Shown here piece after piece: positions 4,417 to 19,400 of a stretch of 64,000 bases of DNA. A model generated the notes under the pieces. The model did no database searches. It was not told the DNA's origin and saw only the letters and a list, made by a program, of their open reading frames with translations. The DNA comes from a virus (taxonomy: Duplodnaviria; Heunggongvirae; Uroviricota; Caudoviricetes): the IMG/VR virus record IMGVR_UViG_3300032046_000009; one strand, written 5' to 3'. A program made the position numbers and the translations under genes. The stretch's first letter is position 1. Each line of letters starts with the position of its first letter.

Positions 4417-4504
4417 GTCCTTAAAGATGATATAACACCGTCCTTAATAAAGAGTTCTATGGTTTTTCTTGTAATAGGTATATAAACCTTTCGCTCTGTT
4501 CGAA

Positions 4505-4800
4505 CCTGTCCGTGCCAGCGATACCCAAAAGGACTGTATATCAAACCCGTTTGTCAAAAACAAGCCCTGAGCATGTCGTTCGGACGAATACGCTCAATTC
4601 CCTTTATATTTGCTCAACGATATTGAGCGAGCAAGCCCCGTTTAGTCGAATAAGGCTAAATCGTGGAGTTCGGGTCTATGTTAGGCATGGTCAATTCAAC
4701 ATCAGTCCTATGGTAACTATGGTTCGATGACGTTCGTTTAGCTAAATCAGCCTTAGAGCTAGTCATCGCGGCGAGTTCGAATCTATAAGATGCCTCTATT
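4505..4800. ncRNA. candidate noncoding RNA locus, paralog of 19105-19400
   Basis: ORF-poor; shared blocks cccaaaggactgt, cctgagc, aacgatattga, catcagtcctatgg. Confidence 0.4.
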
Positions 4801-5871
4801 AACTGATTCCGCCTCAAATCGGGGTCCGATGATGTGTAGCTAAAGTGTATCTGTGTTCTACAACTAAAAGCAAACGTTTATATAGGACGCTGAGAACGTA
4901 GTATTTGGCGGCGGCGGTTCGCGTTAAGCGTATATTACATAGTTACGCATCTTATGAATTCAGTTGCACTAAAAGTTCAACTTTGGGTTGCCTCTCTCCC
5001 GTGTCTTGCGTCAAGCTACTAGCAGATACGCACAGCCCTATATAAACCTTCCTATTAAAGTGTAGAACAGAGATACAATAGGAACCTTTATATACCTCGC
5101 TATCCTCTTCTCAGCGCGCCTCAAATCGTGCTTCGTTTGGCTAATCCGCCTCGATTCAGCCCTAATTGAACATGGTTGTTCTAGGCAAACATTTATAAGC
5201 AACCATGCCTTTTATATGGTATGTATCGAAAGACGTGATTAAACCCAGAGTTGTACTTTATGGTTCGAATTTTGCTAAGTTTGCACATATATAAGCAACC
5301 GATAGGTTTAAATAGCTACTATATAAGGCTATCGGCGATACGCTTAAATAGGGGGTATATAAACGTTTTGGTCTAGCACAACTTCTAGTGTAACAAAAAG
5401 TGCAACTTTTGGGGTAACGCCTCGGCTAACAGGAAATTGTCCGTAGAATGCAACTGAGAATGTCACATAAGCGCACATAGGCGTTTTTTTGATTCCAATT
5501 ATTTTCTGGTCAGAGCTTCCACGCCGTCCGTTTTACCTGTCGGTTTGCCCTGCTTAATCACCTGATTAAAAGTTCTCCACAGTTCCGCGAGCCTTTCGGA
5601 TAATAAAGTCACCGTTTGCCAAAACGTCTTTTTTTCAGGGCTATTTTGGCATTCAGGGGAGCTAGAGGGGGGGGACTTGTTTATAATGGGGTATTAATCA
5701 GTTGTTTAAAATAGAGCTATAGCACTATGTCAGTCAGCACGTTGTCGTATGCCAACTATTCACTCCATAGACCCTTTACGTATGACAACCCTTTTCTTTA
5801 CGTATGTAAAGGTCATCAGTATCTTTTATCGAGCATTTCTTTTATCCATGTACTCCACTTTTTAGCTATTC

Positions 5872-6040
5872 TGGGGGTCTAGTACCACTTTTAGGGGTCT
5901 TTTGAGGGGTATAGGGAGTCATCTAGGGGGTTAGTGATTAGAGGTCGTTAGGGGTTCGTGGTTAAGGGGGTCGGACGGGGGTTCTCTGGGGTTCGGGAAT
6001 TTACTTAACAATTTCTGTTAATGGTTAGGGGGGTCGGGGT
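5872..6040 (+). repeat. G-tract iteron array (about 10 runs of G4-G6)
   Basis: taggggtc, gaggggta, tagggggtt, ttaggggttc, taagggggtcgg, acgggggttc, ctggggttcgg, ttaggggggtcgggg. Confidence 0.75.
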
Positions 6041-6389
6041 AAAGGGTGCATGTGGCATGAGAGAGCCTGTTACGAGCTACGATTCGTTAATCAGTTGATT
6101 AAAAGTTCGGGTTTGCCTGTGTCGCCTTGCTACGGGCTTGGCAGAACTTGGGTCAGTCTGGGTTGACTAGGTGAAATCAAAAAGTGTTAAGGATTCTTAA
6201 CAAAAATTGTCTAAGTTTGCAGAGGGTAAAAGAGGGGGTTTCGAGAGAGGTTAGAAGGAATGAGTAGAACGGGCGAAGGGAAAGCGCGAGAAAGGACGGT
6301 GAAAAAATGGAACAATATCCCTTCGCCCTTGATAGAGTAGTATGTCAAACGGGTATATAAAGGTTGTGGTAGAAAGACCATGCTCGAAT

Positions 6390-6608
6390 CTAGTGTTCGA
6401 CTTTATAGATTCCATAGAGCAGTACCAATATTCCAACAGGGACACCCAAAAATAGAAGCGGTGAAAATAGCGCACCAAAAGTAGCAGAAAAAGCGAAAAT
6501 GAAAATTCCACCCAGAATTGCCCCTATACTTTGGGTTAGAGGGTCACGTATGACTTCGATGGTTCTTGTGTAGAGCCACTTAAAGAATCCTATTTTTTGC
6601 TTGACCAT
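6390..6608 (-). CDS. small membrane protein
   Basis: track 6390..6617; hydrophobic stretches; ATG 5 nt after AAGTGA; TATA 6643-6650. Confidence 0.55.
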   Translation of the reverse strand: MVKQKIGFFKWLYTRTIEVIRDPLTQSIGAILGGIFIFAFSATFGALFSPLLFLGVPVGILVLLYGIYKVEH

Positions 6609-6671
6609 CTTGTTCACTTGATAATAACAACAACACCGAGCTATATAAAGGTTTCCTAAGAACGTCCATGC

Positions 6672-6809
6672 TCAAAATTCAATGTGAACTTTGAGTATTC
6701 CAGAAAGTATTAGAGCTATTACAACTACGAAAAAGGCTATCGGGGCAAATGCCATGATTATGCCAGCGTTCTCTTTTACTTTCTTAATCACGGTTTTTAG
6801 TGTTATCAT
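6672..6809 (-). CDS. 45-aa membrane protein (not in track)
   Basis: hand translation; one TM; stop TGA in TTTTGAGCATGG element. Confidence 0.4.
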   Translation of the reverse strand: MITLKTVIKKVKENAGIIMAFAPIAFFVVVIALILSGILKVHIEF

Positions 6810-6982
6810 TTTAGACCACTTAGATTAGCGCGGAACACGGACGATTCTCCAATAAGCGTCCATCACTCGTCAGCTAAGGACGTAGTTTGGAAACCTTGTT
6901 TCCGTGCTCATACGAGTAATACAATAATCAAACAACTATATAAAGATTGTGGTAGAAACATCATACTCAAAAAAAGAGAGTT

Positions 6983-7162
6983 TTAGAGAAATTGTTTATT
7001 CTCTGTCCGTATCTGAATGTCAATGTCCGTAACGAGTATTTCAATGCTGTCTATGTTTTGTTGTTTCTTGCGTCTTTTAGTCTTTACGGCATCTTTTAAG
7101 AGCTTTATGACGTATCGAGCTTGTTTCGGGGTTATTTTGACCTTAAACTCTTTGTCTATCAT
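6983..7162 (-). CDS. 59-aa basic protein (not in track)
   Basis: ATG 3 nt after stop of 7166..7513; hand translation. Confidence 0.45.
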   Translation of the reverse strand: MIDKEFKVKITPKQARYVIKLLKDAVKTKRRKKQQNIDSIEILVTDIDIQIRTENKQFL

Positions 7163-7165
7163 GGC

Positions 7166-7513
7166 TTAAGCGTCCTTCAAGTAAAGCGTATATCCGACTG
7201 AGAACCATCCCGTTTGGCAGAAGCCAATAATAACGGTTTCTCCGCGCGTTTCGCACTCTTTTATCTTGTCTTTCAGCAATTCGGTCATTGCTTTCGGGTC
7301 TGTTCCAGATTCACCCATAGTTGCTATCCATCCAGAATGAAGGTGTTCATTTTGAAGCCCTGTGCCTGAACGGGTCGTAATTTTGTCGTCATTTCCTAGT
7401 TCAATAGCGTGGTAGCCCCGTTTCTTTGCCAGCGCGTCTAATCTGTCATAGTCTTGGAAAACATTGCAATGGACGGGTGGGAATTTGTCTTTTGATGTTA
7501 GGAAGTTCTTCAT
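7166..7513 (-). CDS. hypothetical protein
   Basis: 115 aa ORF, co-oriented, 11-nt gap to upstream gene. Confidence 0.65.
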   Translation of the reverse strand: MKNFLTSKDKFPPVHCNVFQDYDRLDALAKKRGYHAIELGNDDKITTRSGTGLQNEHLHSGWIATMGESGTDPKAMTELLKDKIKECETRGETVIIGFCQTGWFSVGYTLYLKDA

Positions 7514-7524
7514 TGCTCAGTCAC

Positions 7525-7914
7525 CTATTGATGTCCGTCTTGAATATTCTGGAAAACTTCAATGAATCCGTGCATGTGAACGGCACACGCGAATAACTCA
7601 TAGATTCCATAGTATGACGCAAAGTTGTCATAACCAACACCCGAATCTACGAAGATTCTGGGTCGCTTTTGGACATTGCCCTTCTCTGTGAGTCCCGCTA
7701 GAACAACGACACGTTTTTCTGGGTTCTTTAGAAGATATTTTTCTAATTGTTCTCTTGCCTCTTTGCCGAAGTTGTCCTCAATGTTCGCTAGGTTCAAGTA
7801 TGTCAGCTTAGAGTATCGTTCAGATGGTTGTGCTGGATATTGGTTTTCGAGCCATGACTCTGAGGGTTTAACGTTCTTCGATGTCAGCTTTTCCTTTAAC
7901 TCTTGTAACTTCAT
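7525..7914 (-). CDS. hypothetical protein
   Basis: 129 aa; AAGGTTGAAACT-ATG leader; TATA 7949-7956. Confidence 0.65.
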   Translation of the reverse strand: MKLQELKEKLTSKNVKPSESWLENQYPAQPSERYSKLTYLNLANIEDNFGKEAREQLEKYLLKNPEKRVVVLAGLTEKGNVQKRPRIFVDSGVGYDNFASYYGIYELFACAVHMHGFIEVFQNIQDGHQ

Positions 7915-7985
7915 AGTTTCAACCTTTGAAGAGTAGTGTTCGCCGTCCTATATAAAGGTTCGCTAAGAACGAACGTGCTCAAAAT
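7915..7985 (-). promoter_or_regulatory. class I promoter cassette with distal TTGAGCACG..TTCTTAGCG element
   Basis: plus strand cgccgtcctatataaaggttcgctaagaacgaacgtgctcaaaa. Confidence 0.6.
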
Positions 7986-8149
7986 TTTAGGGGGGTCTTG
8001 GCTAGTGCGTTTCGCCGTGACCCTAGTTTTATTTAATGTAGAGGTTGAAATTTGCCCTATGTCGTATCGCACCGCATAAGGATTTTTCAACGTGCGGAAT
8101 AGACATATACACACCGAAGTATATAAACTTTCGCTAAGAACAACCATAC

Positions 8150-8533
8150 TCAGAGAGGAATAACACCTAGCCATTTATAAACTTCGGTGTTAATTTCAGC
8201 CATACCCGAACCCGTCCATACGTTGTGAGGAATAGAAGTATGAAGAGACTCTGGAATGAAAATAACGTGTGATTTATCGATGTGGTGTCCTTCTGAACCG
8301 TTAAAAGGTGCGTTTAGAATAATAGAGCCTAATTCTCGGCGTTTAGCTTGAATCCTAGCTTGCGTTTTCTTGTGATAAATTCGATGTTCTCTCTCATATT
8401 TTCTCTCATAGTTTGGGTTTTCTAATCTCCATTTCCTCTTATATAACTTTACCTCTTTCTTATGTTTCAAACGCCAATTCTTGTAATATGTAATACGTTT
8501 TTCTCTTGAATCTGTGAGCGTCATTTGATTCAC
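8150..8533 (-). CDS. His-rich nuclease-like protein, paralog of 9378..9704
   Basis: shared KRRELG and GHHID..VIxIPxxLHxSIxHxVWTGxGMAEIN. Confidence 0.65.
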   Translation of the reverse strand: MNQMTLTDSREKRITYYKNWRLKHKKEVKLYKRKWRLENPNYERKYEREHRIYHKKTQARIQAKRRELGSIILNAPFNGSEGHHIDKSHVIFIPESLHTSIPHNVWTGSGMAEINTEVYKWLGVIPL

Positions 8534-8579
8534 ATTAAACTAAATGTTAAACGTGCTTATAAAGGTTTCGGTAAAAGTT

Positions 8580-8830
8580 AGTTGGAACACGGGGGAGAGT
8601 GTGCCCCCGTGTTCTCGGACGTGGTTTGTGGTTTTTTGTCAGTTGAAGCACAAGTTGGTGGAATGCCCCGTGTACGGGACAAACCTTCGGTCTTGTGCGG
8701 TTCCGTTCTTTGTCGCTTATTTCGAACGTAACCCTAGCGACTATGAAGGGTCGGCAAGTTTGTGAGCGTATAGCTCTTTGGTCTTGCGCGCCCTTTGTTT
8801 AGACGCAAGCGCGTCATGTATTATTGAGAT
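8580..8830 (-). ncRNA. candidate GC-rich structured RNA
   Basis: TATA 8841-8848 fires leftward; no minus ORF; perfect 11-bp hairpin gaacacggggg/cccccgtgttc 8585-8614. Confidence 0.45.
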
Positions 8831-8870
8831 GTCAAACGACTATATAAACTTTTCGGGAGAAAGACCATGT

Positions 8871-9254
8871 TTATTGTCTGGGTTTGTTTGCCCTTTCTCT
8901 AAAATCGTCTGTTTCTTGTTGTGTGAAAACTTTATCAATAGCTGGAAGTCTATCGCTCTTTACATAACCATGTAAAAGGTTTCTCTCTTCTACATATTCA
9001 TTATCGCTTTCAGCGTTCAAGTTGTGAGAAATAGCTGATAAACTTTCGTATGGAAGAATTCGGTTTAATACTTCATAAATTGCAACTTCATTGAATTCGT
9101 GAACGAACAACTCAGCACCAATATCATCAGCGATTATACTGTCAATGGAATAGATAACTTTGGTAATTTTAGTATCATATCTTGAAATAGTCCCAGAAGC
9201 CAAAGCTGTTCCATCGAGTTCAGCGTTATCGAAGTAAATTTTCTCCGTGTTCAT
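8871..9254 (-). CDS. hypothetical protein
   Basis: track 8871..9266; ATG 6 nt after GGTGA beside palindrome 9267-9282. Confidence 0.6.
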   Translation of the reverse strand: MNTEKIYFDNAELDGTALASGTISRYDTKITKVIYSIDSIIADDIGAELFVHEFNEVAIYEVLNRILPYESLSAISHNLNAESDNEYVEERNLLHGYVKSDRLPAIDKVFTQQETDDFRERANKPRQ

Positions 9255-9266
9255 CGCGTTCACCAA

Positions 9267-9282
9267 TTAATCAACTGATTAA
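9267..9282. promoter_or_regulatory. 16-bp palindrome TTAATCAACTGATTAA (between TATA and start)
   Basis: read directly; second copy at 9332-9347 flanks the same promoter. Confidence 0.7.
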
Positions 9283-9331
9283 TCAGTACAGCGCGCTATA
9301 TAAAGTTTCGCCTAGAACGTCCATGTTCGAG

Positions 9332-9347
9332 TTAATCAACTGATTAA
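9332..9347. promoter_or_regulatory. 16-bp palindrome TTAATCAACTGATTAA (promoter-distal copy)
   Basis: read directly. Confidence 0.7.
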
Positions 9348-9377
9348 AAATTCGCTAAAAACCACTTGTCGCCACGT

Positions 9378-9704
9378 TTATGTGGTAAGCCATTCGAAAA
9401 CTTTATCATTTATTTCTGCCATACCCTGACCTGTCCAAACGCAATGATGAATAGAAATATGAAGTTCTCTGGGAATATAGATAACACATTCAAAATCTAT
9501 ATGATGAGCAACAGAGCCAATAAATCTCCCATTAAAAGGGTCAAACCCTAATTCTCGCCGTTTTGCATTCTTCATTTTAGTTCGCTCTGGGTGTTTTTTT
9601 CCCCACATTTTTATTTGTTCTCGTTGTCTCTTTTTTTGTGATTCAGTTTTCTCTTTTATTTCAACGTCAAAATTTCCAATAGACTTTAATCGCATCTGAA
9701 TCAT
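9378..9704 (-). CDS. His-rich nuclease-like protein, paralog of 8150..8533
   Basis: VAHHIDFECVIYIPRELHISIHHCVWTGQGMAEIN; class II TATA 9730-9737. Confidence 0.65.
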   Translation of the reverse strand: MIQMRLKSIGNFDVEIKEKTESQKKRQREQIKMWGKKHPERTKMKNAKRRELGFDPFNGRFIGSVAHHIDFECVIYIPRELHISIHHCVWTGQGMAEINDKVFEWLTT

Positions 9705-9745
9705 CTAAAGATAAAATAGTAGAAGTTGCTTATAAAGGTTATGGT

Positions 9746-9961
9746 TTATGTAAATTGAACCTGTTCTATGTCTTTCTTTTTGATGATTTTTTCGAAACAG
9801 TCAGGGCAGAGCCACGTTAAAGTTATGCCAATTTTTCCTCTTTCTTGTACTTTTCCTTTCAAACGATAAACTTTTAGGCTGTTTTTCCAACAATTAGTGC
9901 AACTATAATAGCTTATTGATGAAATACAAATATTATAATCGGTTTTTGTTAGTTGAATCAT
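9746..9961 (-). CDS. small Zn-ribbon protein, last cassette of array A
   Basis: ATG in JM; ends EQVQFT then TAA (start of JM lost). Confidence 0.65.
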   Translation of the reverse strand: MIQLTKTDYNICISSISYYSCTNCWKNSLKVYRLKGKVQERGKIGITLTWLCPDCFEKIIKKKDIEQVQFT

Positions 9962-10200
9962 GTAAACTCTACCTTCTCTTTGCTGTTGAGAAAATCCTTA
10001 AACCACTTTTCCTTTTCCCATTCTTCAATGGGCGTATGAAAACCTAAAAGCGTCCCATGTTCTTTGTCAAACCTTTTTGAAAAATATCTCTTCCATTCTT
10101 CGTTACAACTTTCGCAGAGAACAGCCAATAATAGTTTAATTGGAAATTGACCGCTAACTATTCTTTTGCATTTTCTACAACGTCCTTTAAATTTTGTCAT
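9958..10200 (-). CDS. small Zn-ribbon protein (family B)
   Basis: JM both ends; CRKC..CESC-x3-W; ends EKVEFT. Confidence 0.7.
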   Translation of the reverse strand: MTKFKGRCRKCKRIVSGQFPIKLLLAVLCESCNEEWKRYFSKRFDKEHGTLLGFHTPIEEWEKEKWFKDFLNSKEKVEFT

Positions 10201-10424
10201 GTAAATTCAACCGTTTCCCGTTCACTCTTCCAATACTCACATGAACAACCTAAACGATAAGAATGTCTAGGACTACCTAACGGAGTTTTCACGTCCCTTA
10301 AAAATCCTGTAGCTTTCCCGTTCGGTTCAGTTAAGTTAGGTTGTGAGCGCATCTCTGTGCATTTATAATAAATCTTGTCGAGATTCCTCTTGTTCGAACA
10401 GTTAAAGCAACCTTTCTCTTTCAA
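10197..10424 (-). CDS. small Cys protein (family C, GCFNC..GCSC)
   Basis: track 10197..10493 trimmed to TTG in JM 10421-10441; ends ETVEFT. Confidence 0.6.
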   Translation of the reverse strand: MKEKGCFNCSNKRNLDKIYYKCTEMRSQPNLTEPNGKATGFLRDVKTPLGSPRHSYRLGCSCEYWKSERETVEFT

Positions 10425-10660
10425 GTGAAATTGACCTTCTCTTTTGTTGTTACTTTGCGTTTTAATAGCCACTTTTTGAAAAAAGACTCCCAAGTATTAT
10501 CTCTTCTATCGTGAAAGAAGTCATGTCGTTCTTGTGATTTTTCCCACAAAATACCATGTGAGTCGCAAAGATAAAGTTTTTCCTCAGTCTGTATATCGTG
10601 ATAATTTGCATAACCTTTTTTACCGCAAATACAACACTTTTTACGGTTTGAATTTATCAT
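10421..10660 (-). CDS. small Zn-ribbon protein (family B)
   Basis: JM both ends; CCICG..CDSHGILW; ends EKVNFT. Confidence 0.7.
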   Translation of the reverse strand: MINSNRKKCCICGKKGYANYHDIQTEEKLYLCDSHGILWEKSQERHDFFHDRRDNTWESFFKKWLLKRKVTTKEKVNFT

Positions 10661-10836
10661 GTGAACTCGACCTGTTCTTTTTCGTTAGCCTTTTTATAAC
10701 AAACATTTAGGGTATTGCCTTTGAATCCTCTTTCTATTGAACATGGTTTGCAATAACACACGTTCGCGCTCAATTTATGCAAACTATCACATATATTATT
10801 GCAAGTGAATCTCTTTCCACAAACTTTACAAATCAT
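10657..10836 (-). CDS. 59-aa 8-Cys protein (family A; not in track)
   Basis: hand translation MICKVCGKRFTCNNIC..CYCKPC..EQVEFT; ATGA overlaps. Confidence 0.6.
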   Translation of the reverse strand: MICKVCGKRFTCNNICDSLHKLSANVCYCKPCSIERGFKGNTLNVCYKKANEKEQVEFT

Positions 10837-11051
10837 GTGAACGTCACCGTTTCCCGTCCCTTTAGACGGTTAATAATCTCTCGCGCCTTCATTTTGTCTA
10901 AGAGTTCCATTATCTCTGGGTTATCGGAAAGTAACTTGTCTATGCGTTCGCCTTGCTCTCTGAGCCTGTCTAGCTCGTACATCATACAATTAAAGCATAA
11001 TTTCTCGTTAATTCGTTGTTTGAACTCGTTTCCACATTTAGAACAAATCAT
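10833..11051 (-). CDS. small Zn-ribbon protein (family B)
   Basis: track 10833..11087 trimmed to ATG in JM; ends ETVTFT. Confidence 0.65.
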   Translation of the reverse strand: MICSKCGNEFKQRINEKLCFNCMMYELDRLREQGERIDKLLSDNPEIMELLDKMKAREIINRLKGRETVTFT

Positions 11052-11194
11052 GTGAAACAGACCTTTTCTCTTCCTTTGTTGTTGCATTGCTTACACATTC
11101 TTGAACCTATCTTCTTTGCATCCGCATAGTTTTTAACGGGAATATTGAGAGGTCTGCCACATTTTGAACACGGTATAACGAGAACGCCCGTCAT
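11048..11194 (-). CDS. 48-aa Zn-ribbon protein (not in track)
   Basis: CSKCG..CKQC; ends EKVCFT; ATGA overlaps. Confidence 0.55.
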   Translation of the reverse strand: MTGVLVIPCSKCGRPLNIPVKNYADAKKIGSRMCKQCNNKGREKVCFT

Positions 11195-11397
11195 GTGAAT
11201 AACACCTTCTCTTTTGGCTCTGGGGTTTTATATAGTTTGGTTCCTCGCGCTTTCATTTGAGAATTAAGTTCTTGACAACATTTATCAATTTCATCATAAT
11301 CAATACTGTTTTCGTGACATTTATCGTGCATCTTGCATTCCGTACACAAATCCTCATAATCGTACTCGATATAACCGTTATCGTCTATTGTTGTCAT
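11191..11397 (-). CDS. acidic Cys-containing small protein
   Basis: track trimmed to ATG in JM 11394; ends EKVLFT. Confidence 0.65.
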   Translation of the reverse strand: MTTIDDNGYIEYDYEDLCTECKMHDKCHENSIDYDEIDKCCQELNSQMKARGTKLYKTPEPKEKVLFT

Positions 11398-12420: not shown

Positions 12421-12635
12421 ATACTGTTCCGTATCTTACAACTTTCGAGTTTAAGCCCATATTCAGCCTCTAATTGCTTCGCCCTCTTCGCCAGCCCGTC
12501 CTTATAGGATTTAACGCCCAGAATGAGCAGACAATCTTTCATCCATCCCTCATAAACGATTAGTTTGTCCCCCTCAATTCGAACTCCAAATCCAATATGC
12601 CCAAGTTTTCGAGCTACGTTCTTCAAATCAGTCAT
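12387..12635 (-). CDS. hypothetical small protein
   Basis: 82 aa; ATG in JM 12632. Confidence 0.65.
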   Translation of the reverse strand: MTDLKNVARKLGHIGFGVRIEGDKLIVYEGWMKDCLLILGVKSYKDGLAKRAKQLEAEYGLKLESCKIRNSISRMVFLEQPL

Positions 12636-12853
12636 GTAAATTCAACCCTCTCAGGAACCATGAATTTCACCTTTCGAATTATGTCACCGTGAACGAAATA
12701 CTTTGACCATTTTCGTTTTACCACACACACGGTAAAAACAAGTGGGGTTTTTTTTGTAATTGATTCAACTTCTAGTATCGTGCCTACGGGAACGTAAGGA
12801 TTATTTGATTTAAGCAACCGTACAAAATCGCCAGCTTTTATTATTTGATTCAT
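12632..12853 (-). CDS. small beta-barrel (SH3/KOW-like) protein
   Basis: AGDFV motif; JM both ends; ends ERVEFT. Confidence 0.65.
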   Translation of the reverse strand: MNQIIKAGDFVRLLKSNNPYVPVGTILEVESITKKTPLVFTVCVVKRKWSKYFVHGDIIRKVKFMVPERVEFT

Positions 12854-13005
12854 GTAAATGCAACCTTTTCCTTCGTCCGTTTGACCTCTACGACTGTGAG
12901 AATGCCCCCTTCGTCCATTCCGTTTGATAACAGACAGTCTTTCATGTCGAGCAATGTCGGGGGGTCGTCCCCTTCGTATGTAACTAAGAATTTCTTTTTA
13001 GACAT
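12850..13005 (-). CDS. 51-aa acidic protein (not in track)
   Basis: hand translation; ends EKVAFT; ATGA overlap. Confidence 0.5.
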   Translation of the reverse strand: MSKKKFLVTYEGDDPPTLLDMKDCLLSNGMDEGGILTVVEVKRTKEKVAFT

Positions 13006-13166
13006 TATTTCACGCTCTTGTTCTCTAGTTTGTAAAGGTCTGAATTAAGAAACGCTTCGGAAAATTCACAACCGTTCAGCCAATTTTCTACTAATCCCCG
13101 TCTAACTTCGTTGCGTGTCAAAATTCGGTTATCCGTCCACGAAGGTTGTTTTGTCAAAGTTTTCAC
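13005..13166 (-). CDS. 53-aa protein (not in track)
   Basis: GTG in GGACGTGA; TAATG overlap downstream. Confidence 0.4.
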   Translation of the reverse strand: MKTLTKQPSWTDNRILTRNEVRRGLVENWLNGCEFSEAFLNSDLYKLENKSVK

Positions 13167-13279
13167 GTCCGTTCCTTAAAGATTTTTTTCGCTAACGGGT
13201 GTTCTGAAAACTTTTTGCCACCCTCAGTTTCACTAAAGATTTTACGAAATATTTCGTAGCCCGTTAGTTCTTTACTCAT
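13163..13279 (-). CDS. 38-aa protein (not in track)
   Basis: ATG 3 nt after stop of 13283..13561; GTGA overlap. Confidence 0.4.
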   Translation of the reverse strand: MSKELTGYEIFRKIFSETEGGKKFSEHPLAKKIFKERT

Positions 13280-13282
13280 TTT

Positions 13283-13561
13283 TTAATCTTCCTTAATGTG
13301 TGGATTTAATGCAATTCCGTAGGCAACTAAGACTTCTTTAATTTTGCCTATGTCTTTTGTCGAAACATAAAAAGTGGACTCGGTACTAACCTCATATTCA
13401 AATTGAGAAAGAAGGTTGCATATAAGGTCAATATCTTCCTGTTCTTCTATGTCGAAACCGTCTTTTCTAATGAGCAACAGAGAACATGGTACTTTAAGGT
13501 TTGAGAACAGTTTAGCGTCCTCTTCTATTTCTTTGGTTGAAATTATATTGAATTGAAACAT
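13283..13561 (-). CDS. hypothetical acidic protein
   Basis: 92 aa; GCGTGAAAGAAA-ATG leader. Confidence 0.65.
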   Translation of the reverse strand: MFQFNIISTKEIEEDAKLFSNLKVPCSLLLIRKDGFDIEEQEDIDLICNLLSQFEYEVSTESTFYVSTKDIGKIKEVLVAYGIALNPHIKED

Positions 13562-13593
13562 TTTCTTTCACGCTCGAATTTTTGTCTAAGTTT

Positions 13594-14283
13594 TCAGTCC
13601 TCTTCTTTCTTGTTCTTCTTTGCCTTTTCTGCCTTTTGGTCACAGAGAAAACTTTCGCATTGCCCGTTCAATTCGTCCAGCATATTCACGGTGTCTAACA
13701 TTTCGTTATATCGCTCGTGTCCCTTCATGCTTTCGATGTGTGAATTGCAAATCTCAACTGCTTTTCGACATCTCCAAAGTGTGCTCTGAGCCATGCGTTT
13801 GTCTTTTAACCCGTCCTCTGCCATCTTGACGTGTTCCATTATGAAGTTAAGAATGAACTCTGCTTTCTTGTCTTTGTAGTTTTCGAATCCTTCTGGGGTC
13901 GTGAAAATCGGAATGATTTTTATGCGTCTGTCGATGTCCTCAAATCCTTTGCTCTTTGCCTTTGCCTTTATCTCTTCAATTTCTGCAACAGCTAAGTCCA
14001 GCTTATCGCCGTCCAGAAGCCAACTGCTTTCGAGATGTTTCACAGCGTCCAGCTTGAATTTCAGAGCGAACACAATTGCGTTTCTGAAAATTCGCGCAAG
14101 TTTGTTGAATCGCGTGTTTGCGTCCCGTTGTTCTTTTGTCAACTTTTTCTTTTCCGCGTCCGTCAGATATTTCTCGCTGTAAAGGTCATACTCTATTGTA
14201 TAAATCGTTTCGCCGTGTAGTCCTAACGATTCAAGAGCCTTTTCGTCTATGATGAGTTTGTTTGTCGTTTTTTGGTCAGCCAT
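13594..14283 (-). CDS. hypothetical coiled-coil protein
   Basis: track 13594..14292; ATG after AAGTGATTAAA, i.e. palindrome 14285-14300 supplies the SD. Confidence 0.7.
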   Translation of the reverse strand: MADQKTTNKLIIDEKALESLGLHGETIYTIEYDLYSEKYLTDAEKKKLTKEQRDANTRFNKLARIFRNAIVFALKFKLDAVKHLESSWLLDGDKLDLAVAEIEEIKAKAKSKGFEDIDRRIKIIPIFTTPEGFENYKDKKAEFILNFIMEHVKMAEDGLKDKRMAQSTLWRCRKAVEICNSHIESMKGHERYNEMLDTVNMLDELNGQCESFLCDQKAEKAKKNKKEED

Positions 14284-14284
14284 T

Positions 14285-14300
14285 TTAATCACTTGATTAA
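14285..14300. promoter_or_regulatory. 16-bp palindrome TTAATCACTTGATTAA between TATA and start
   Basis: read directly; TATA 14318-14325. Confidence 0.7.
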
Positions 14301-14352
14301 CTATAAATACAGCGTCCTATATAAACGTTTGCTAGGAATCTCCATTCTCATT

Positions 14353-14706
14353 TTACTTAATCAGGTGATTAAACGATTTATGACTAATAATTCTGTGACA
14401 ATTCGCGCAGACTAATCGAACGTCCTCTGGAATTTTCTCTGCCCTTCTCCAACGAACCAATTCTTTTACTCTTCGATTCGCATTTTTTTGTTGTTCATTG
14501 CAACGAAGCCATGTATCGTTTCCTTCATGGTGAAAATCATAAACACAAGAATCAAAATGTTTATCGCAATGAAAACACTTATCGCCTAACTTTTGAATCG
14601 CCCAGAGTTTTAATTCTTCTAGCCATTTTTGGTGATATATCTTTTGGCATTCAGGACATCTTTGAGATTTTGTATTTGTTTCTTTTTCACAGTCTTGACA
14701 TTTCAT
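14353..14706 (-). CDS. HNH endonuclease
   Basis: CPEC..CFHC..HH..N..CANCH; class II TATA 14741-14750. Confidence 0.7.
   Translation of the reverse strand: MKCQDCEKETNTKSQRCPECQKIYHQKWLEELKLWAIQKLGDKCFHCDKHFDSCVYDFHHEGNDTWLRCNEQQKNANRRVKELVRWRRAEKIPEDVRLVCANCHRIISHKSFNHLIK
14357..14372. promoter_or_regulatory. 16-bp palindrome TTAATCAGGTGATTAA, promoter-distal copy
   Basis: read directly; flanks the same promoter about 72 bp away. Confidence 0.7.
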
Positions 14707-14762
14707 TTGAAACACTAATTAATAGATGGTTAATTAAGTATTTAAGTCTTATGGTTGATTAA

Positions 14763-15050
14763 TTAGGTGAATTGAACACATTCTCTCTCAGGAGCTAAGA
14801 GGTTCCATCTGCCCTTATCATAAATGAATTGTTTTCCTTTGAAAAATAAAAAGTCAAAAGGCAAATCATTTTTACGACAAACTTCGCAAAAATAATGCAA
14901 AAAGTGAGTTTCCCTTATTTTTTGTCTATCGTGTTGTGAAAAACTATCTGTGAAAAAAAGTGTTCCACTTTGTTCTTCCAGAATAGAACCACAAGACGGA
15001 CATTTTCGAGTCAAGCGAATTGAACCGCAAGACGGACAATTTTGAATCAA
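14763..15050 (-). CDS. small double Zn-ribbon protein, terminal cassette
   Basis: TTG in JM 15047; CPSCG x2; ends ECVQFT then TAA. Confidence 0.65.
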   Translation of the reverse strand: MIQNCPSCGSIRLTRKCPSCGSILEEQSGTLFFTDSFSQHDRQKIRETHFLHYFCEVCRKNDLPFDFLFFKGKQFIYDKGRWNLLAPERECVQFT

Positions 15051-15262
15051 GTAAATTGCACCTGTTCTCTAGCTTCGGATTCTGCTAGATAAGTTGTGCA
15101 ACAACAACCATAACGATAATCTTCCGCACCGTCCTTCAAAATCTCCATAAAATTAATTCCATTTCTTCTTTGTCCCTCAATAAGATGACATTTTTTGAAT
15201 CGAGCGCAATTAAAACAACCACGCTCTATCGTTAATTCTTCGTCTTGCCCGATATATGTCAT
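15047..15262 (-). CDS. small Cys protein (family C, GCFNC..GCCC)
   Basis: track trimmed to ATG after GGTGAAAAA; ends EQVQFT. Confidence 0.6.
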   Translation of the reverse strand: MTYIGQDEELTIERGCFNCARFKKCHLIEGQRRNGINFMEILKDGAEDYRYGCCCTTYLAESEAREQVQFT

Positions 15263-15266
15263 TTTT

Positions 15267-15419
15267 TCACCAATGGAAAATTTCCCGTTCAACTTTCTTT
15301 TTCGGTTTCGATTTTCGTTTGTGAGTTTGAGCGTATTTTTTCTGATAGTCTTTTCTTCTCTCGATTAGAAATTCTTGCATTTCTCTTCGCGCTAACGCCT
15401 CTTCAATATAATCAGTCAT
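15267..15419 (-). CDS. 50-aa basic protein (not in track)
   Basis: hand translation; K/R-rich. Confidence 0.45.
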   Translation of the reverse strand: MTDYIEEALARREMQEFLIERRKDYQKKYAQTHKRKSKPKKKVEREIFHW

Positions 15420-15452
15420 TTTGGTTTTCCTCAAAAAAGTGGAATTTTGGGT

Positions 15453-15779
15453 TTACCATTTATCGTGTAGCCATAGCCAAATTGCACGTTGTTCAATTGG
15501 TAACTCTTCGAATTCTTTACAGTAGAAATGACGTATGAATTCGAGAAGTTTTCCATCTGCAATTTTGTGGCATTTTTTGTGAATATAGTGAATCCGTCCG
15601 TGTGCTTCGCAATGTGCAGTTTTGTGTTTCGGGTCTAGGCAAATTTCACAGATACCTTTCGGGGGGTTTTTGGGGTCAAACGGTTTCTGCAAAGTTTTTC
15701 GTGTCGGTTGTGGTGTTGGGGGTTCTTCGCCAGCAGGGTTCGCTACTATAATTTTTCTATTGCAAAAGAATCTATTCAT
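15453..15779 (-). CDS. Cys/His-rich Zn-binding protein
   Basis: CEIC..H..HC..H..H..KKCH; TAAATG junction with MoxR gene. Confidence 0.65.
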   Translation of the reverse strand: MNRFFCNRKIIVANPAGEEPPTPQPTRKTLQKPFDPKNPPKGICEICLDPKHKTAHCEAHGRIHYIHKKCHKIADGKLLEFIRHFYCKEFEELPIEQRAIWLWLHDKW

Positions 15780-16667
15780 TTAGGTATCCTCTTCTTTCTT
15801 TTTCAACTTTTCTACGTCTATCTCAGAGCTATCTTCGAAGAACGACCTAAATAAATTGCGCTCTTCTCTTGCGGTGTAAAGCGAACTTGCTATATCGATT
15901 ATGTCCTCTTCGGACATCTTCGCTTTGTAGAGTTTGCCGTAGTTTATTAGGTTGCCTGTCGTGAGGGGCGTTCTAAGTTTTCCGTTCTCGTATTCGGTTC
16001 GCGTCTTTTTGGCAATTTCTACGAACTTCGCAGAAAAGTCATAGTTTCCAGAGAACTTCTTTACCAATTCGCGTTCTTTCTGGGGGCTAAGGTATTCGAT
16101 TATCAGACCTTCAAATCGTCTAATGGTTGCAATGTTCTCGATGAATGTCCCAGAGTAACCCGATTTTTCTGAGGGGTTATAGCTGATAACGAGATAGTGC
16201 TGTGCTGTCCGTGTGAATTGCTTCTTGTATTCTGGAATATACACGTTTCCCCTAAAGTCTGCCAATGATTCCAGAAGTGAAATTATCGATGGTTCTGCAT
16301 AGTTGAACCCGTCTATGTAAAGCAGACCTTTCTCGCTGTTCAACCATTGAATTATGATTCCATCTCTTGTTTCTGTGCTTCCAGCTTTCAGAGTATCACA
16401 TGCCAGCAAATCCCACTTTGTCACGTCCCGTGTTAAGACAATTTCAAAAAGCGGAACCTCTAACAATTCAGCCAACTTGTGAACAAGAGTTGTTTTGCCC
16501 GTCCCCGTTTCGCCGACTAATCTAAGGTTGCCGACAATTTCAAGAATCGCTCTTGACTTTTCAATGTAGCCATGTTCGTCCACGAACTCGATGCCTTTGA
16601 CGTAGATGCCAGCACCTTCAAGTGCTGATTCGACCTTTGCATGAATCTTTTCAAATTCTGAGTTCAT
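15780..16667 (-). CDS. AAA+ ATPase, MoxR/CbbQ/NorQ-like
   Basis: Walker A GETGTGKTT; Walker B LLYIDGF; VWA partner in the adjacent unit. Confidence 0.8.
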   Translation of the reverse strand: MNSEFEKIHAKVESALEGAGIYVKGIEFVDEHGYIEKSRAILEIVGNLRLVGETGTGKTTLVHKLAELLEVPLFEIVLTRDVTKWDLLACDTLKAGSTETRDGIIIQWLNSEKGLLYIDGFNYAEPSIISLLESLADFRGNVYIPEYKKQFTRTAQHYLVISYNPSEKSGYSGTFIENIATIRRFEGLIIEYLSPQKERELVKKFSGNYDFSAKFVEIAKKTRTEYENGKLRTPLTTGNLINYGKLYKAKMSEEDIIDIASSLYTAREERNLFRSFFEDSSEIDVEKLKKKEEDT

Positions 16668-16805
16668 CTTTATTACCTTACGAGTATAGATGCCAGCGTC
16701 CTATTTAAATGTTTGCTTAGAAAGACCATGTTCATTTTAGTTAATCAACTGATTAAAATTTCTCAAAACCCCTCTCCCGCCCGAACCAAAGGTTGCACCA
16801 AAAGT

Positions 16806-17033
16806 TTAAGTAAATTGCACTTCTTCTCTGCCCGATTCTTGGCAATGAAATTGAACAACGTTAAAAGATTCATAAGTAGAGTCTGCCCCAGACAACTTTG
16901 AAAACTCTTCCGAAACTTTTTTTACACACTCAAGACAATAACAGTCATTCGGATTTTTAAGTCTATCACTTTTGCATTTTCCGTTGCAGAAAAAATTGTT
17001 CTTACAATGTGTGCAATGTCTTTTATATTTCAC
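16806..17033 (-). CDS. 8-Cys small protein (family A)
   Basis: CTHCKNNFFCNGKC..CYCLEC; ends EEVQFT then TAA. Confidence 0.65.
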   Translation of the reverse strand: MKYKRHCTHCKNNFFCNGKCKSDRLKNPNDCYCLECVKKVSEEFSKLSGADSTYESFNVVQFHCQESGREEVQFT

Positions 17034-17039
17034 AAGTTA

Positions 17040-17204
17040 TCACATTCGAGTTTTGTTAAGTTTACTTCGTTTCAATTCGCAATAAAGCATAGTCCACAAG
17101 AATTTTTTGGTTAGCTTTATCTTGTGTTTATTGTATTCGAAGAGGTCTTTAGAAATTTCGTCTGCCAATTTTCTACATTCTTTATCGTCAATTATGCAAA
17201 CCAT
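17040..17204 (-). CDS. 54-aa protein (not in track)
   Basis: ATG 6 nt after VWA gene stop; hand translation. Confidence 0.45.
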   Translation of the reverse strand: MVCIIDDKECRKLADEISKDLFEYNKHKIKLTKKFLWTMLYCELKRSKLNKTRM

Positions 17205-17210
17205 TTTTAC

Positions 17211-18938
17211 TCACTTCTGGGTTTCTACGTTTAGATACACGTTTAGGAATCTCTGAGGTAATTCGGATATTTGGTTTATCCGTGTTCGTGAGCACTTCAA
17301 GTTTTTCACTTTGCTTGCGAAGGTTTCTACATTCTCACAGTCACAGAAACCTATGAAGATACATTCAATTCCAGCTTTCGCATATTGGTCGATTAATTCC
17401 TCTGCTTTCGTTTCTTCATCACCACAGAAGCAGAAATCGGACGCAATGACCAGAATCTTTCGGCGTTCGCCTTTAATCGTATTGAACATTCTCAGGCTTG
17501 CCTCTAATCCAACGGAAACCTCAGTACCGCCAGCATTCACCGAAATAGCTCCAATTCTTGCCCGTGTGTTTTCGAAGGTTTCAAAGAAAGTCTTTACTTT
17601 CTGGGTATCTGCCCCAAAGCACCCAATACTGAACCCGTAATCGTCAACGTAATGTCCAAAGACCTCATTCAGTATAGTGGTTATCTTTTCAGCCTCTATT
17701 CGACTAACTGACCCTGAGAAATCGAACCAAAATTGAATTGCGACTTGTTCCTTCTCAAATTTTGTTGTTGTACGCAGATACACATTGCGAACGGTTCCCC
17801 TAAAGCTGTTTGTGTAGATGCGTGGAACAATTGGACTCATCATTTTTCCGCGTTTCTGGAAAATGTCCCGTTGAACTCTCGGTTTCATTTTCTTCTTTAG
17901 TTGATTCAATAGCTCGGAAATTTCAGGCTTGCATTCGTCCAGAAGTTTCGAATACGCCTCAAAATCTGGGTCTGGGGCTGGAATCTCTTCGCCTGTGCCT
18001 TCGCCAGCACCCGAACCTTTCTGCAAATCTTCTAGGTGTTTCTTCTTGTCCTCTTCTGCCTTTTCTTGCTCTTCCTCTTTTTCTAGTAATTGCCTAAGTC
18101 TGTCCGATATTTTGCCCTTTACGTTGCCCCCTCTTCTAGAAACGACATATTCCTTTGTCGTATAGTCAGCGTTCAAGTGTTTAGCTACCAATTCATAAAT
18201 CGTTTGGCAAGACCTTATTATGTCGAGTTTGACACGTTGATATTTCGTCCCCTCTAGCACTTTAAGGGCTGTTTCACAGTCCTTTCTAGCATCTGGGCTT
18301 AGTTTGTTCCATAACTCTGTGCATTTAGCCTCATATAGACCTTCATTGCACAAAATTGCAACCATGTAAACCCCGTCTTGTTGTCCAGCTTGAATTGTCA
18401 TGTTTGGAATTTCGTTTTCGCCTAAGTTTTCGCCCTTCGGTAAGATGGTTGACATGGCTATTTGTGGCTTTTCAATTGTGTTGTCTATCATGTCTTTTAG
18501 TATCAAATTCGCCAAAAGTAGCCTCTTGCCGACATCAAACCTGTATCTGAGAATTATGAAATGATTCACGCGCTTATCTTCAACTATGTTGCAAACTTCG
18601 TGAGCCAGCTTGTAAAATCCTCTCTGTCGTTTGATTTTTGTTGTCCAATTGTTGAAAAATTCCCAATTCGGTTTTGTTAGAATCAGATGACCGCACTCGT
18701 GAACCATGTCACCGTCTAGGATTTTTCGGAATAGACGGGGCGATGTTTTCACGAAATCGGGATAACTCTGTAAACTCAAAGAAATCTCAAAGTTTTCCAT
18801 ATTGAAAGCAGAAGTTGGTTGTTCTGGAATATACTTGATACGAATCCGTTTGTCCTTCGTAATTGCTATGGCAAGATTCCTCATCTCGTCAAGTATCTTA
18901 GAGAAGTTGTTCGTCTTTGCTTGTTTCTGCTTTGTCAT
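17211..18938 (-). CDS. VWA-domain protein with N-terminal HExxH (CbbO/NorD-like)
   Basis: HECGH; MIDAS DFSGS; VIASDF; acidic linker. Confidence 0.75.
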   Translation of the reverse strand: MTKQKQAKTNNFSKILDEMRNLAIAITKDKRIRIKYIPEQPTSAFNMENFEISLSLQSYPDFVKTSPRLFRKILDGDMVHECGHLILTKPNWEFFNNWTTKIKRQRGFYKLAHEVCNIVEDKRVNHFIILRYRFDVGKRLLLANLILKDMIDNTIEKPQIAMSTILPKGENLGENEIPNMTIQAGQQDGVYMVAILCNEGLYEAKCTELWNKLSPDARKDCETALKVLEGTKYQRVKLDIIRSCQTIYELVAKHLNADYTTKEYVVSRRGGNVKGKISDRLRQLLEKEEEQEKAEEDKKKHLEDLQKGSGAGEGTGEEIPAPDPDFEAYSKLLDECKPEISELLNQLKKKMKPRVQRDIFQKRGKMMSPIVPRIYTNSFRGTVRNVYLRTTTKFEKEQVAIQFWFDFSGSVSRIEAEKITTILNEVFGHYVDDYGFSIGCFGADTQKVKTFFETFENTRARIGAISVNAGGTEVSVGLEASLRMFNTIKGERRKILVIASDFCFCGDEETKAEELIDQYAKAGIECIFIGFCDCENVETFASKVKNLKCSRTRINQISELPQRFLNVYLNVETQK

Positions 18939-19005
18939 TTTTCCACACCTTTATAGATGCCAGCGTAGCTTATAAAGGTTTCCCCAGAACGACCATGCTC
19001 GTTTT
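18939..19005 (-). promoter_or_regulatory. class I promoter cassette, palindrome 19008-19023 upstream
   Basis: aaaggtgtggaaaaatg leader; gcttataaaggtttccccagaacgaccatgctcg. Confidence 0.6.
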
Positions 19006-19104
19006 AGTTAATCAACTGTTTAAAAAAGTGAAAGGTTGCACTCTGAGTGACTTAAATGTTGATGGTCAAAGGCATGGTCGAAACTTTTATTACACCTAGA
19101 GTTT

Positions 19105-19400
19105 AACTGTGCCCCGAAGTAGTGTCCCCCAAAGGACTGTGGATAATGCCCGACTCTCAATTTCATCCCCTGAGCGTTCTCTTCGGGGCAAATCGTTCAA
19201 TAATTTCGAACATATATAAACGATATTGAACGAGTGTCCTTCTTTTGTTCGAAGAGGCTCAAATAATGCTTTTCGACCAATGGAAACGATGTTAAAAAGA
19301 CCATCAGTCCTATGGAATCTGGGTTTCGTTCGGGTTCGTTTTGGAAAATCAGTCTTGGAAAACGGCAACGCGCAGACTTCGAATGTAAAGGCTTCGAGTT
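19105..19400. ncRNA. candidate noncoding RNA locus, paralog of 4505-4800
   Basis: 10-bp long-range pair gccccgaag/cttcggggc (19112-19193); no credible ORF. Confidence 0.4.

What the first reader, a model, noticed from the sequence alone, without database searches (positions are those of the whole stretch)
4505..19400. Duplicated ~300-bp noncoding locus with an apparently compensatory helix
Regions 4505-4800 and 19105-19400 align over several blocks. These are cccaaa(a)ggactgt, cc(c)ctgagc, aacgatattga(g/a)cgag, catcagtcctatgg and aaatcag. In the second copy GCCCCGAAG (19112) pairs with CTTCGGGGC (19184). At the equivalent positions the first copy has GTCCG paired with CGGAC. That is a different sequence with the same pairing, as expected for a conserved RNA helix. 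A central TATA-like box (4600-4612 / 19209-19220) could drive one or both arms. Strand and boundaries are unresolved.
Basis: partly seen in the sequence, partly recalled or inferred. Interest (0 to 1): 0.6.

Follow-up and report, generated by a model that had tools for sequence, protein, structure and literature searches.

The report
Duplicated noncoding cassette, different conserved helix

Summary
The duplication is real. Windows 4497-4820 and 19100-19415 (both + strand) align far better than shuffles (z = 19.6). I found seven more copies in five related metagenomic contigs. They form three clades (A, B, E) that are 54-68% identical, with almost no indels.

They are not coding. Substitutions show no 3-base periodicity, no ORF is shared, and stops are scattered. 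Nothing matches Rfam, and ARAGORN finds no tRNA in the window.

The central TATA-like box is not conserved either.

What is conserved:
- Invariant sequence blocks.
- An 11-fold, one-strand excess of GTTCG.
- A 7-bp long-range pairing, P1 (AGGACUG/CAGUCCU), enclosing 165-166 nt.

A diverged sister type in contig L093 has an 11-bp helix at the equivalent place (loop 167-168 nt). Its two paralogs differ by two compensatory double changes.

Global fold conservation is poor (SCI 0.17) and no standard promoter precedes the elements.

Best reading: an accessory, folded noncoding element, most simply a + strand RNA (confidence about 0.45). A DNA-level protein-binding platform is the main rival. Moderately interesting.

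The parts
4497..4820 (+). Copy A (clade A) of the ~320-nt noncoding element. Orthologs: L105:543-866(-), L106:2225-2545(-), L096:81-402(-).
   Evidence: nhmmer with the 9-sequence HMM, E = 7e-95. Alignments.
19100..19415 (+). Copy B (clade B). Orthologs: L092:669-985(-), L095:954-1268(+).
   Evidence: nhmmer, E = 4e-83. Alignments.
4530..4536 (+). P1 5' arm of copy A (AGGACTG).
4703..4709 (+). P1 3' arm of copy A (CAGTCCT). The loop is 166 nt.
19133..19139 (+). P1 5' arm of copy B (AGGACTG, extended by TGG).
   Evidence: P1 forms in the minimum-free-energy fold of copy B.
19305..19311 (+). P1 3' arm of copy B (CAGTCCT, preceded by CCAT). The loop is 165 nt.
4567..4583 (+). Small hairpin P2 in copy A (CUGAG..UUCGG). 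It has two G.U pairs, so it forms on the + strand only.
   Evidence: 93% of cells paired in 9 copies, but nearly invariant.
19170..19186 (+). Small hairpin P2 in copy B (CUGAG..UUCGG).
4508..4585 (+).
   Evidence: Present here, but the helix is paired in only 57% of cells across 9 copies.
19111..19189 (+).
   Evidence: Present here. It is eroded by one-sided changes in B_L092 and B_L095.
4591..4629 (+). Inverted repeat H2 (CGCTCAAT/ATTGAGCG) around the TATA-like TTTATAT at 4603-4609.
   Evidence: Kept with a C:G to T:A change in the B copies, but broken in 4 of 9 copies; 70% of cells paired.
19194..19232 (+). Inverted repeat H2 (CGTTCAATA/TATTGAACG) around ATATATAA at 19212-19219.
4722..4790 (+). 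Sequence-constrained 3' module of copy A (GGTTCGATGACGTTCGTTTAGCTAAATCAG ... GAGTTCGAATCT). GTTCG repeats start at 4498, 4578, 4668, 4722, 4732 and 4775.
   Evidence: The module is shared with the D-type in L093.
19325..19392 (+). The same 3' module in copy B (TTCGTTCGGGTTCGTTTTGGAAAATCAG ... GACTTCGAATGT). It ends in GAGTTTTG just before a palindrome.
19008..19023 (.). Palindrome TTAATCAACTGTTTAA, the left boundary of the cassette slot holding copy B.
19407..19422 (.). Palindrome TTAATCATTTGATTAA, the right boundary of the slot. The segment between the two palindromes is absent in relative L085.

Best explanation
Copies A and B are two old paralogs of a family of ~320-nt accessory noncoding cassettes. 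The family is carried by an uncultured, probably archaeal, virus- or plasmid-like lineage from peat and sediment metagenomes.

The element acts as a folded nucleic acid, most simply a noncoding RNA read from the window's + strand, antisense to most genes.
- A long-range helix, P1, closes a core domain of fixed length (165-168 nt).
- A sequence-constrained 3' tail follows. It carries several same-strand GUUCG motifs that resemble tRNA T-loop sequence (GUUCGAAUC, GGUUCGAUG).
- I infer that these invariant single-stranded blocks are contact sites for a protein or RNA partner.

Shown: homology; non-coding nature; constraint; the P1 pairing with covariation across types; strict length conservation; presence/absence and type swapping between relatives.

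Inferred: that it is RNA rather than DNA, which strand is used, and what the partner is.
For: Homology and copies:
- Homology z = 19.6.
- Nine copies fall in three clades, in window, L092, L095, L096, L105 and L106.

Not coding:
- Substitution counts by codon phase are flat ([14,13,13], [15,14,15], [10,15,10]).
- No shared ORF of 12 or more codons. Stops occur in every frame in the A copies.

Constraint:
- Window vs L095: B diverges 19.5%, against 39% at fourfold-degenerate sites of the adjacent VWA gene.
- Window vs L105: A diverges 12%, against 27% at fourfold-degenerate sites of the adjacent 173-aa gene.
- 92 of 276 columns are invariant across clades that are 54-68% identical. Only two 1-nt indels occur in about 265 columns.

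P1:
- 98% of cells are paired.
- A 7-bp Watson-Crick helix kept in at least 8 of 9 copies never arose in 300 shuffles that preserve which positions are invariant.
- The sister D-type has two paralogs in L093, at the same two genomic positions as A and B.
- At the equivalent place the D-type carries CGCUGAAAAAC/GUUUUUCAGCG and CGCUAAAGAAC/GUUCUUUAGCG. That is 11 bp with two compensatory double changes and a loop of 167-168 nt. A helix that long arose in 2 of 300 shuffles.
- RNAalifold predicts the D-type helix on its own.
- A covariance model of the A/B/E family aligns the L093 B-position copy end to end, 323 nt against 327 model positions. Its helix arms fall on P1, though four or five of the ten pair positions are flagged non-standard (15.6 bits, rough E of 2e-4).

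Strand:
- P2 and H3 contain conserved G.U pairs.
- The one P1 variant that still pairs is a G.U on the + strand.
- alifold z is -2.9 (+) against -2.0 (-). Single-sequence z is -1.6 (+) against -0.4 and -0.8 (-).

Context:
- A bona fide tRNA gene in relative L087 is laid out as promoter module, RNA, then palindrome.
- The B cassettes end in a T-run followed by a palindrome.
Against: - Within the nine copies, covariation is not above controls (66/500 and 144/500).
- Close pairs show no excess of compensatory double substitutions.
- The structure conservation index is only 0.17.
- Single-sequence folding is barely better than shuffles.
- No copy has the lineage's standard promoter module upstream in either orientation. 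TATA-like sequences at the right distance occur in some copies only.
- P1 within A/B/E is invariant, so it is also compatible with one DNA motif used in both orientations.
- No expression data are available.
Confidence: 0.45

Rival explanations
1. Double-stranded DNA platform. The element is a cis-acting array of protein-binding sites, with GTTCG direct repeats and CAGTCCT in both orientations. It would serve transcription control of the flanking divergent promoters, or replication or partition.
For: - The elements lie between a leftward and a rightward promoter.
- GTTCG is enriched 11-fold on one strand, and copies A and B are the two densest GTTCG windows in the 64 kb.
- Conservation is mainly of sequence blocks at strictly fixed spacing.
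- The elements have no promoter of their own.
- AAATCAG resembles a half-site of the genome-wide palindrome TTAATCAG.
- Conservation shows a ~10-bp periodicity peak.
Against: - The periodicity is not significant once run lengths are preserved (p = 0.06 for 9-11.5 nt, 0.33 for any period).
- The two L093 paralogs have different arm sequences that still match each other. One binding protein would not demand that; base pairing does.
- Arms 166 nt apart are not a usual dimer site.
- No recognisable initiator or partition gene is adjacent.
- No GC-skew switch occurs at either copy.
Confidence: 0.3
2. Single-stranded DNA signal. This would be an orientation-dependent folded element used when the strand is exposed, such as a lagging-strand or single-strand initiation site, analogous to the sso/ssi elements of plasmids and phages.
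For: - Base pairing without a promoter.
- All copies in a genome are co-oriented.
- Cassette-like exchange between relatives.
- Short same-strand repeats.
Against: - Nothing suggests a replication mode with long single-stranded intermediates in an element of at least 150 kb.
- No replication genes were identified nearby.
- The analogy rests on my own knowledge of sso/ssi elements and was not tested.
Confidence: 0.1
3. One reading: an RNA whose defining feature is the GTCCG/CGGAC versus GCCCCGAAG/CTTCGGGGC helix, with a central TATA box driving one or both arms.
For: Both pairings exist in the window. B_win and B_L092 have TATA-like sequences about 20 nt upstream of that helix.
Against: - The helix is 57% paired across nine copies and is eroded by one-sided changes.
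- The A and B versions are in registers one column apart.
- The helix crosses P1.
- The central TATA is absent in four of nine copies.
Confidence: 0.05
4. A protein-coding gene and its decayed copy. The candidate is the minus-strand ORF 19096-19368 (90 aa) in copy B.
For: That frame is open in B_win and B_L095.
Against: - The frame has a stop in B_L092 and three stops in each A copy examined (A_win and A_L096).
- Substitutions show no third-position excess, whereas the neighbouring VWA gene shows 26/20/104 by codon position.
- There is no Shine-Dalgarno sequence or promoter module.
- No conserved ORF.
Confidence: 0.03

Closest known systems
Orphan structured noncoding RNAs of phages and mobile elements (e.g. 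GOLLD, ROOL and similar Rfam motifs)
   Same: Several hundred nt, ORF-less, carried by mobile elements, patchily distributed between relatives, function unknown.
   Different: No match to any Rfam 15 model, even at E up to 10. Those RNAs have rich covariation-supported folds. Here only one long-range helix is supported, and SCI is 0.17.
tRNA / tRNA-like elements
   Same: GTTCGAATC and GGTTCGATG blocks are identical to canonical T-loop sequence. GTTCG recurs at roughly 80-90-nt steps in the 5' half.
   Different: ARAGORN and the Rfam tRNA model find nothing in the window. The flanks of the TTCGAAT block do not form a T-stem consistently. A real tRNA-Tyr in relative L087 is detected easily.
Iteron-type origins and single-strand origins (sso/ssi) of plasmids and phages
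   Same: Short same-strand repeats, an inverted repeat around an AT-rich patch in some copies, intergenic position, cassette-like exchange.
   Different: No adjacent initiator gene and no skew switch. The AT-rich patch and its inverted repeat are lost in 4 of 9 copies. The resemblance comes from general knowledge and was not tested.
Invertible promoter switches (fimS-type invertons)
   Same: A 7-10-bp inverted repeat encloses a ~166-bp segment that holds a TATA-like box in some copies.
   Different: All 11 instances recovered have the internal segment in the same orientation. The TATA is not conserved. No recombinase gene was recognised nearby.

Membership tests
Any Rfam 15 RNA family | Score at or above the family's gathering threshold | tested here: not met
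   No match in the window at gathering threshold. No match over either locus at E up to 10, apart from chance-level hits such as GA-cis at 15.4 bits against a threshold of 34.7. In eight homologous loci only a tRNA elsewhere was found.
tRNA / tRNA-like | Cloverleaf with a T-arm (5-bp stem around the TTCRANY loop) | tested here: not met
   ARAGORN finds 0 genes in the window. The flanks of TTCGAAT pair for 2 bp in A and two B copies and not at all in B_L095 and E.
Archaeal C/D box sRNA | C (RUGAUGA) and D (CUGA) boxes at the ends of a 50-70-nt RNA | tested here: not met
   No C/D pair in the right order on either strand of A or B (sequence). The element is about 320 nt. No snoRNA model hits the locus.
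Protein-coding gene | Conserved open frame and 3-nt periodicity of substitutions | tested here: not met
   Flat phase counts; power at period 3 is 1.0 or less; no shared ORF.
Structured RNA in the strict sense (covariation-supported fold) | Compensatory changes significantly above controls across the fold | tested here: inconclusive
   Within A/B/E there is no excess and SCI is 0.17. P1 alone is supported: 0 of 300 shuffles reach it, and the D-type shows two compensatory pairs in 11 bp.
Invertible promoter switch | Both orientations of the segment between the inverted repeats occur in populations | tested here: not met
   The internal segment is collinear with the flanks in all copies from 8 independent assemblies.
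Iteron origin / partition site | Repeats bound by a dedicated initiator or ParB-like protein encoded nearby | not testable with these tools
   Directional GTTCG enrichment is met. Neighbouring genes are a MoxR-like ATPase, a VWA protein and an HExxH protein. Binding cannot be tested here.

The most novel reading that the evidence does not exclude
The A/B/E, C and D types are interchangeable members of one superfamily of accessory RNA cassettes. They occupy palindrome-bounded slots in archaeal mobile elements. Each is closed by its own version of P1 and each displays T-loop-like GUUCG motifs. On this reading it is a modular, fast-swapping RNA arsenal, for example decoys for tRNA-binding or defence proteins.
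Probability: 0.15. Interest if true: 0.7.

Novelty: new member of a known kind. Interest (0 to 1): 0.4.

Why it matters
If it is an RNA, this would be a new family of noncoding RNAs in a wholly uncharacterised lineage of large, probably archaeal, mobile elements. That lineage has no relatives in the phage or IMG/VR collections searched. The cassette swapping at palindrome-bounded slots hints at how such elements exchange noncoding modules. As it stands, the function is unknown and the structural support rests on one helix, so the value is mainly as a well-delimited candidate for transcriptome checks.

Tried and rejected
- Exact-pattern scans. The 14-mer CATCAGTCCTATGG in IMG/VR gave only chance hits. 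The two-arm P1 pattern gave chance hits in IMG/VR and GTDB genomes. The three-block pattern found nothing in IMG/VR or genomes, but found two true copies in JGI metagenomes.
- DNA and protein searches of phage records found nothing. Plasmid records gave only distant CbbQ/NorQ-type ATPases.
- Paralogy of the genes next to A and B, both HExxH proteins, was rejected: BLASTP E = 0.09.
- Helical (~10 bp) periodicity of conservation looked strong against simple permutation. It failed a run-preserving control.
- TTCG enrichment alone is unremarkable, because TTCG is common in the whole window. Only the oriented GTTCG stands out.
- An origin of replication inferred from GC skew has no support.
- Relatives L085, L087, L100, L101, L102 and L107 carry no A/B-type copy.
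- One literature search for described noncoding elements of archaeal viruses found nothing relevant.
Full report
**Setting.** The window is dense with small minus-strand ORFs and has about 38% G+C.
- It carries a highly repeated ~50-nt promoter-like module, TTGAGCATGG..TTCTAG..AAGGTTTATATA, about 35 nt before start codons.
- It also carries 25 copies of the 16-bp palindrome TTAATCAnnTGATTAA at unit boundaries.
- The VWA protein encoded at 17211-18938 also occurs, with identical sequence, on two ENA metagenome contigs of 86 and 151 kb.
- Recognisable genes include a MoxR-like AAA ATPase, a VWA protein, an SPFH protein, a KaiC-like ATPase, an RNA ligase, glycosyltransferases and a trypsin-like protease.
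- Neither the DNA of the copy-A locus nor the VWA and KaiC-like proteins match 50,697 phage records. The VWA protein found no relative in IMG/VR.
- A relative, L087, encodes a 74-nt tRNA-Tyr with a short variable loop and a C1-G72 pair. From established knowledge this is the archaeal/eukaryal type. It sits behind the standard promoter module and is followed at once by a palindrome.
- I therefore treat the host as probably archaeal, and the element as a virus or plasmid of unknown kind.

- The two regions give a local alignment score of 62, against 18.2 +/- 2.2 for dinucleotide shuffles and 18.1 +/- 2.3 for other real windows. That is z = 19.6, and only in the +/+ orientation.
- Only two copies exist in the window.
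- The complementary strings are there too: GTCCG 4508-4512 / CGGAC 4581-4585, and GCCCCGAAG 19111-19119 / CTTCGGGGC 19181-19189.

**More copies.**
- Through homologs of the flanking VWA protein and the flanking 173-aa protein, their contigs and one three-block DNA pattern scan of JGI metagenomes, I recovered seven further copies.
- These are B orthologs in L092 and L095, A orthologs in L096, L105 and L106, and a third clade (E) present as a second copy in L105 and L106.
- Identities are 80-88% between closest orthologs, 62-75% between the more distant A-clade copies, and 54-68% between clades.
- From column 37 to column 300 of the alignment there are only two single-base indels, and 92 of 276 columns are invariant.

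**Not coding.**
- Substitutions are spread evenly over the three phases in every close pair. The neighbouring VWA gene, by contrast, shows 26/20/104.
- Conservation has no power at period 3.
- No ORF of 12 or more codons shares a start column in even 7 of 9 copies.
- The 90-aa minus-strand ORF of copy B is interrupted in B_L092 and in both A copies examined.

**Constraint.**
- B diverges 19.5% between the window and L095, where fourfold-degenerate sites of the adjacent gene diverge 39%.
- A diverges 12% between the window and L105, against 27%.
- Other pairs are close to the synonymous rate: 17% against 20.5%, and 27% against 29%.
- Constraint is therefore patchy: invariant blocks set in fast-evolving filler of fixed length.

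- Across nine copies the helix forms a standard pair in 56.8% of cells. The changes are one-sided, and the A and B versions are in different registers.
- The inverted repeat around the central AT-rich patch (H2) does show a C:G to T:A swap between A_win and B. However, it is broken in four copies (70% paired).
- The TATA-like sequence itself is missing in those same four copies.

**What is conserved.**
- First, sequence blocks: AAGGACTGT, TGAGC, TTCGG, ACGATAnnnAnCGAG, GTCGAAnAGG, TTCGG, CATCAGTCCTA, GTTCGTnT, AAATCAG and GAGTTCGAATnT.
- Second, an oriented motif. GTTCG occurs 2-6 times per copy and its complement 0-1 times, against 0.41 per 300 nt in the window. Copies A and B are the two GTTCG-richest 300-nt windows of the 64 kb.
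- Third, the two longest invariant blocks are complementary: P1, AGGACUG/CAGUCCU. P1 is 98% paired, with one G.U and one mismatch among 63 cells, and encloses 165-166 nt in all nine copies.
- A 7-bp Watson-Crick helix kept in at least 8 of 9 copies never arose in 300 shuffles that keep invariant positions invariant.

**Covariation for P1 comes from a sister type.**
- The slot between the two palindromes upstream of the VWA promoter is variable in relatives:
  - empty in L085;
  - a different ORF-less 'C-type' in L087, L100 and L101, which is also present in the window at about 2420-2570;
  - an HNH-like ORF in L088;
  - a 'D-type' in L093.
- L093 also has a paralog of its own D-type (66% identical) at the position equivalent to copy A.
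- The D-type shares the 3' module TCGATGA..TCGTnT..AAATCAG with A/B.
- 11 nt upstream of that module (14-17 nt in A/B/E), the D-type has the 3' arm of an 11-bp all-Watson-Crick long-range helix with a loop of 167-168 nt.
- The two paralogs read CGCUGAAAAAC/GUUUUUCAGCG and CGCUAAAGAAC/GUUCUUUAGCG, which is two compensatory double changes. A helix that long arose in 2 of 300 column shuffles.
- RNAalifold predicts this helix independently.
- A covariance model built from the nine A/B/E copies aligns the L093 B-position copy over its whole length and puts its arms on P1, though four or five of the ten pair positions are flagged non-standard (15.6 bits, rough E of 2e-4).
- The C-type has GTGATGAAT/ATTCATCAC (loop 56-60 nt). 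In three of its four copies this is followed by CTATGGTTCAATAGTA; compare CTATGGTTCGATGA in copy A and E_L105b.
- Because two copies in one genome use different but matching arms, base pairing explains P1 better than one DNA-binding protein does.

**Limits of the structural case.**
- With nine copies RNAalifold gives -14.2 kcal/mol and SCI 0.17. The z-score is -2.9 on the + strand and -2.0 on the - strand.
- Covariation measures for P1+P2+H3 are not above shuffles.
- Close pairs show no excess of compensatory double substitutions.
- Single sequences fold only 1.6 sd better than shuffles on the + strand.
- Conserved G.U pairs in P2 and H3, and the G.U variant in P1, weakly favour the + strand.
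- No copy has the standard promoter module upstream in either orientation. TATA-like sequences about 25 nt before the start of homology are present in A_win, L105a, B_win and B_L092 but not in B_L095 or E.
- The B copies end in a short T-run before a palindrome, as the tRNA gene of L087 ends before one.

**Mechanism.**
- The best-supported reading is an accessory folded noncoding element, most simply a + strand RNA of about 320 nt. P1 closes a fixed-length domain, and the invariant, largely unpaired blocks (including the T-loop-like GUUCG repeats) are recognised by a partner. My confidence is about 0.45.
- A double-stranded DNA binding platform between divergent promoters remains a serious rival (0.3). 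It explains the block conservation, the fixed spacing and the lack of a promoter. It does not explain the matching arm changes in L093, and its ~10-bp periodicity did not survive a proper control.

**Comparison and novelty.**
- The element fails every family test I could run: Rfam, tRNA, C/D sRNA, coding gene and inverton.
- It resembles orphan ncRNAs of mobile elements in kind, so I file it as a new member of a known kind: a conserved ORF-less element of a mobile genome.
- The patchy presence fits an accessory role rather than an essential one. The element is absent from L085, L100-L102 and L107 and is replaced by other types elsewhere.

Noticed in passing
window, e.g. 6354-6384, 18969-18999, 19556-19586; 17 on the minus strand and 2 on the plus strand: A ~50-nt promoter-like module, TTGAGCATGG-N11-TTCTAG-N5-AAGGTTTATATA, lies about 35 nt before start codons. 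It is far more conserved than a TATA/BRE alone would need. The role of the upstream GAGCATGG box is unknown.
   Followed up: partly
window, 25 sites, e.g. 2353, 9332, 16741, 19008, 19407, 19473, 56711: The 16-bp palindrome TTAATCAnnTGATTAA marks unit boundaries. Cassettes between two such palindromes are gained, lost or swapped between relatives. A tRNA gene in L087 ends directly at one.
   Followed up: partly
window ~2420-2570 (+); L087:9620-9800, L100:3750-3930, L101:1520-1700: A second ORF-less cassette type ('C-type') has a 9-bp long-range complement, GTGATGAAT/ATTCATCAC. A third copy, GTGGTGAAT, could pair with the same arm instead (G.U), giving a possible alternative-pairing arrangement. 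In L087 and L101 a TATA box sits about 20 nt upstream.
   Followed up: partly
window 4850-5250; L106 ~1960-2215 (just downstream of its A copy, in the element's orientation): Clusters of up to eight TATA-like promoter boxes in both orientations within about 250 nt, with no ORFs. They are part of a 1.6-2.1-kb ORF-less region present at this locus in the window, L087 and L093.
   Followed up: no
window 4877-4950; also L093, L105, L107: A promoter followed by the conserved ORF-less sequence GGCGGCGGCGGTTCGCGTTAAGCGTATATTACATAGTTACGCA. It is kept even in L107, where copy A is absent. This is a separate candidate small transcript.
   Followed up: no
L087:2516-2589 and L087:2190-2440: A tRNA-Tyr(GTA) of archaeal type (74 nt, C1-G72) sits behind the standard promoter module. 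Just upstream, another standard promoter is followed by about 250 nt of G+C-richer ORF-less sequence.
   Followed up: partly
window 17211-18938 (-) and homologs P0005, P0011, P0020, P0059: The VWA protein has an N-terminal HExxH motif. Several homologs are about 900 aa because of an intein with a LAGLIDADG endonuclease.
   Followed up: no
window, minus-strand gene starts, e.g. 11186-11221, 38111-38136: Translation starts have an unusually uniform context: AAGGTG, then 8 nt ending in TTCAC or TTTAC, then ATG or TTG. TTG starts are frequent and many products are small CxxC proteins.
   Followed up: no
L096:812-861 (-): An isolated fragment resembles the 5' part of the element (GTTCGG repeats plus CCCTGTAAGGACTGTATAAAA). 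It lies between two genes about 400 nt from the full A copy.
   Followed up: no
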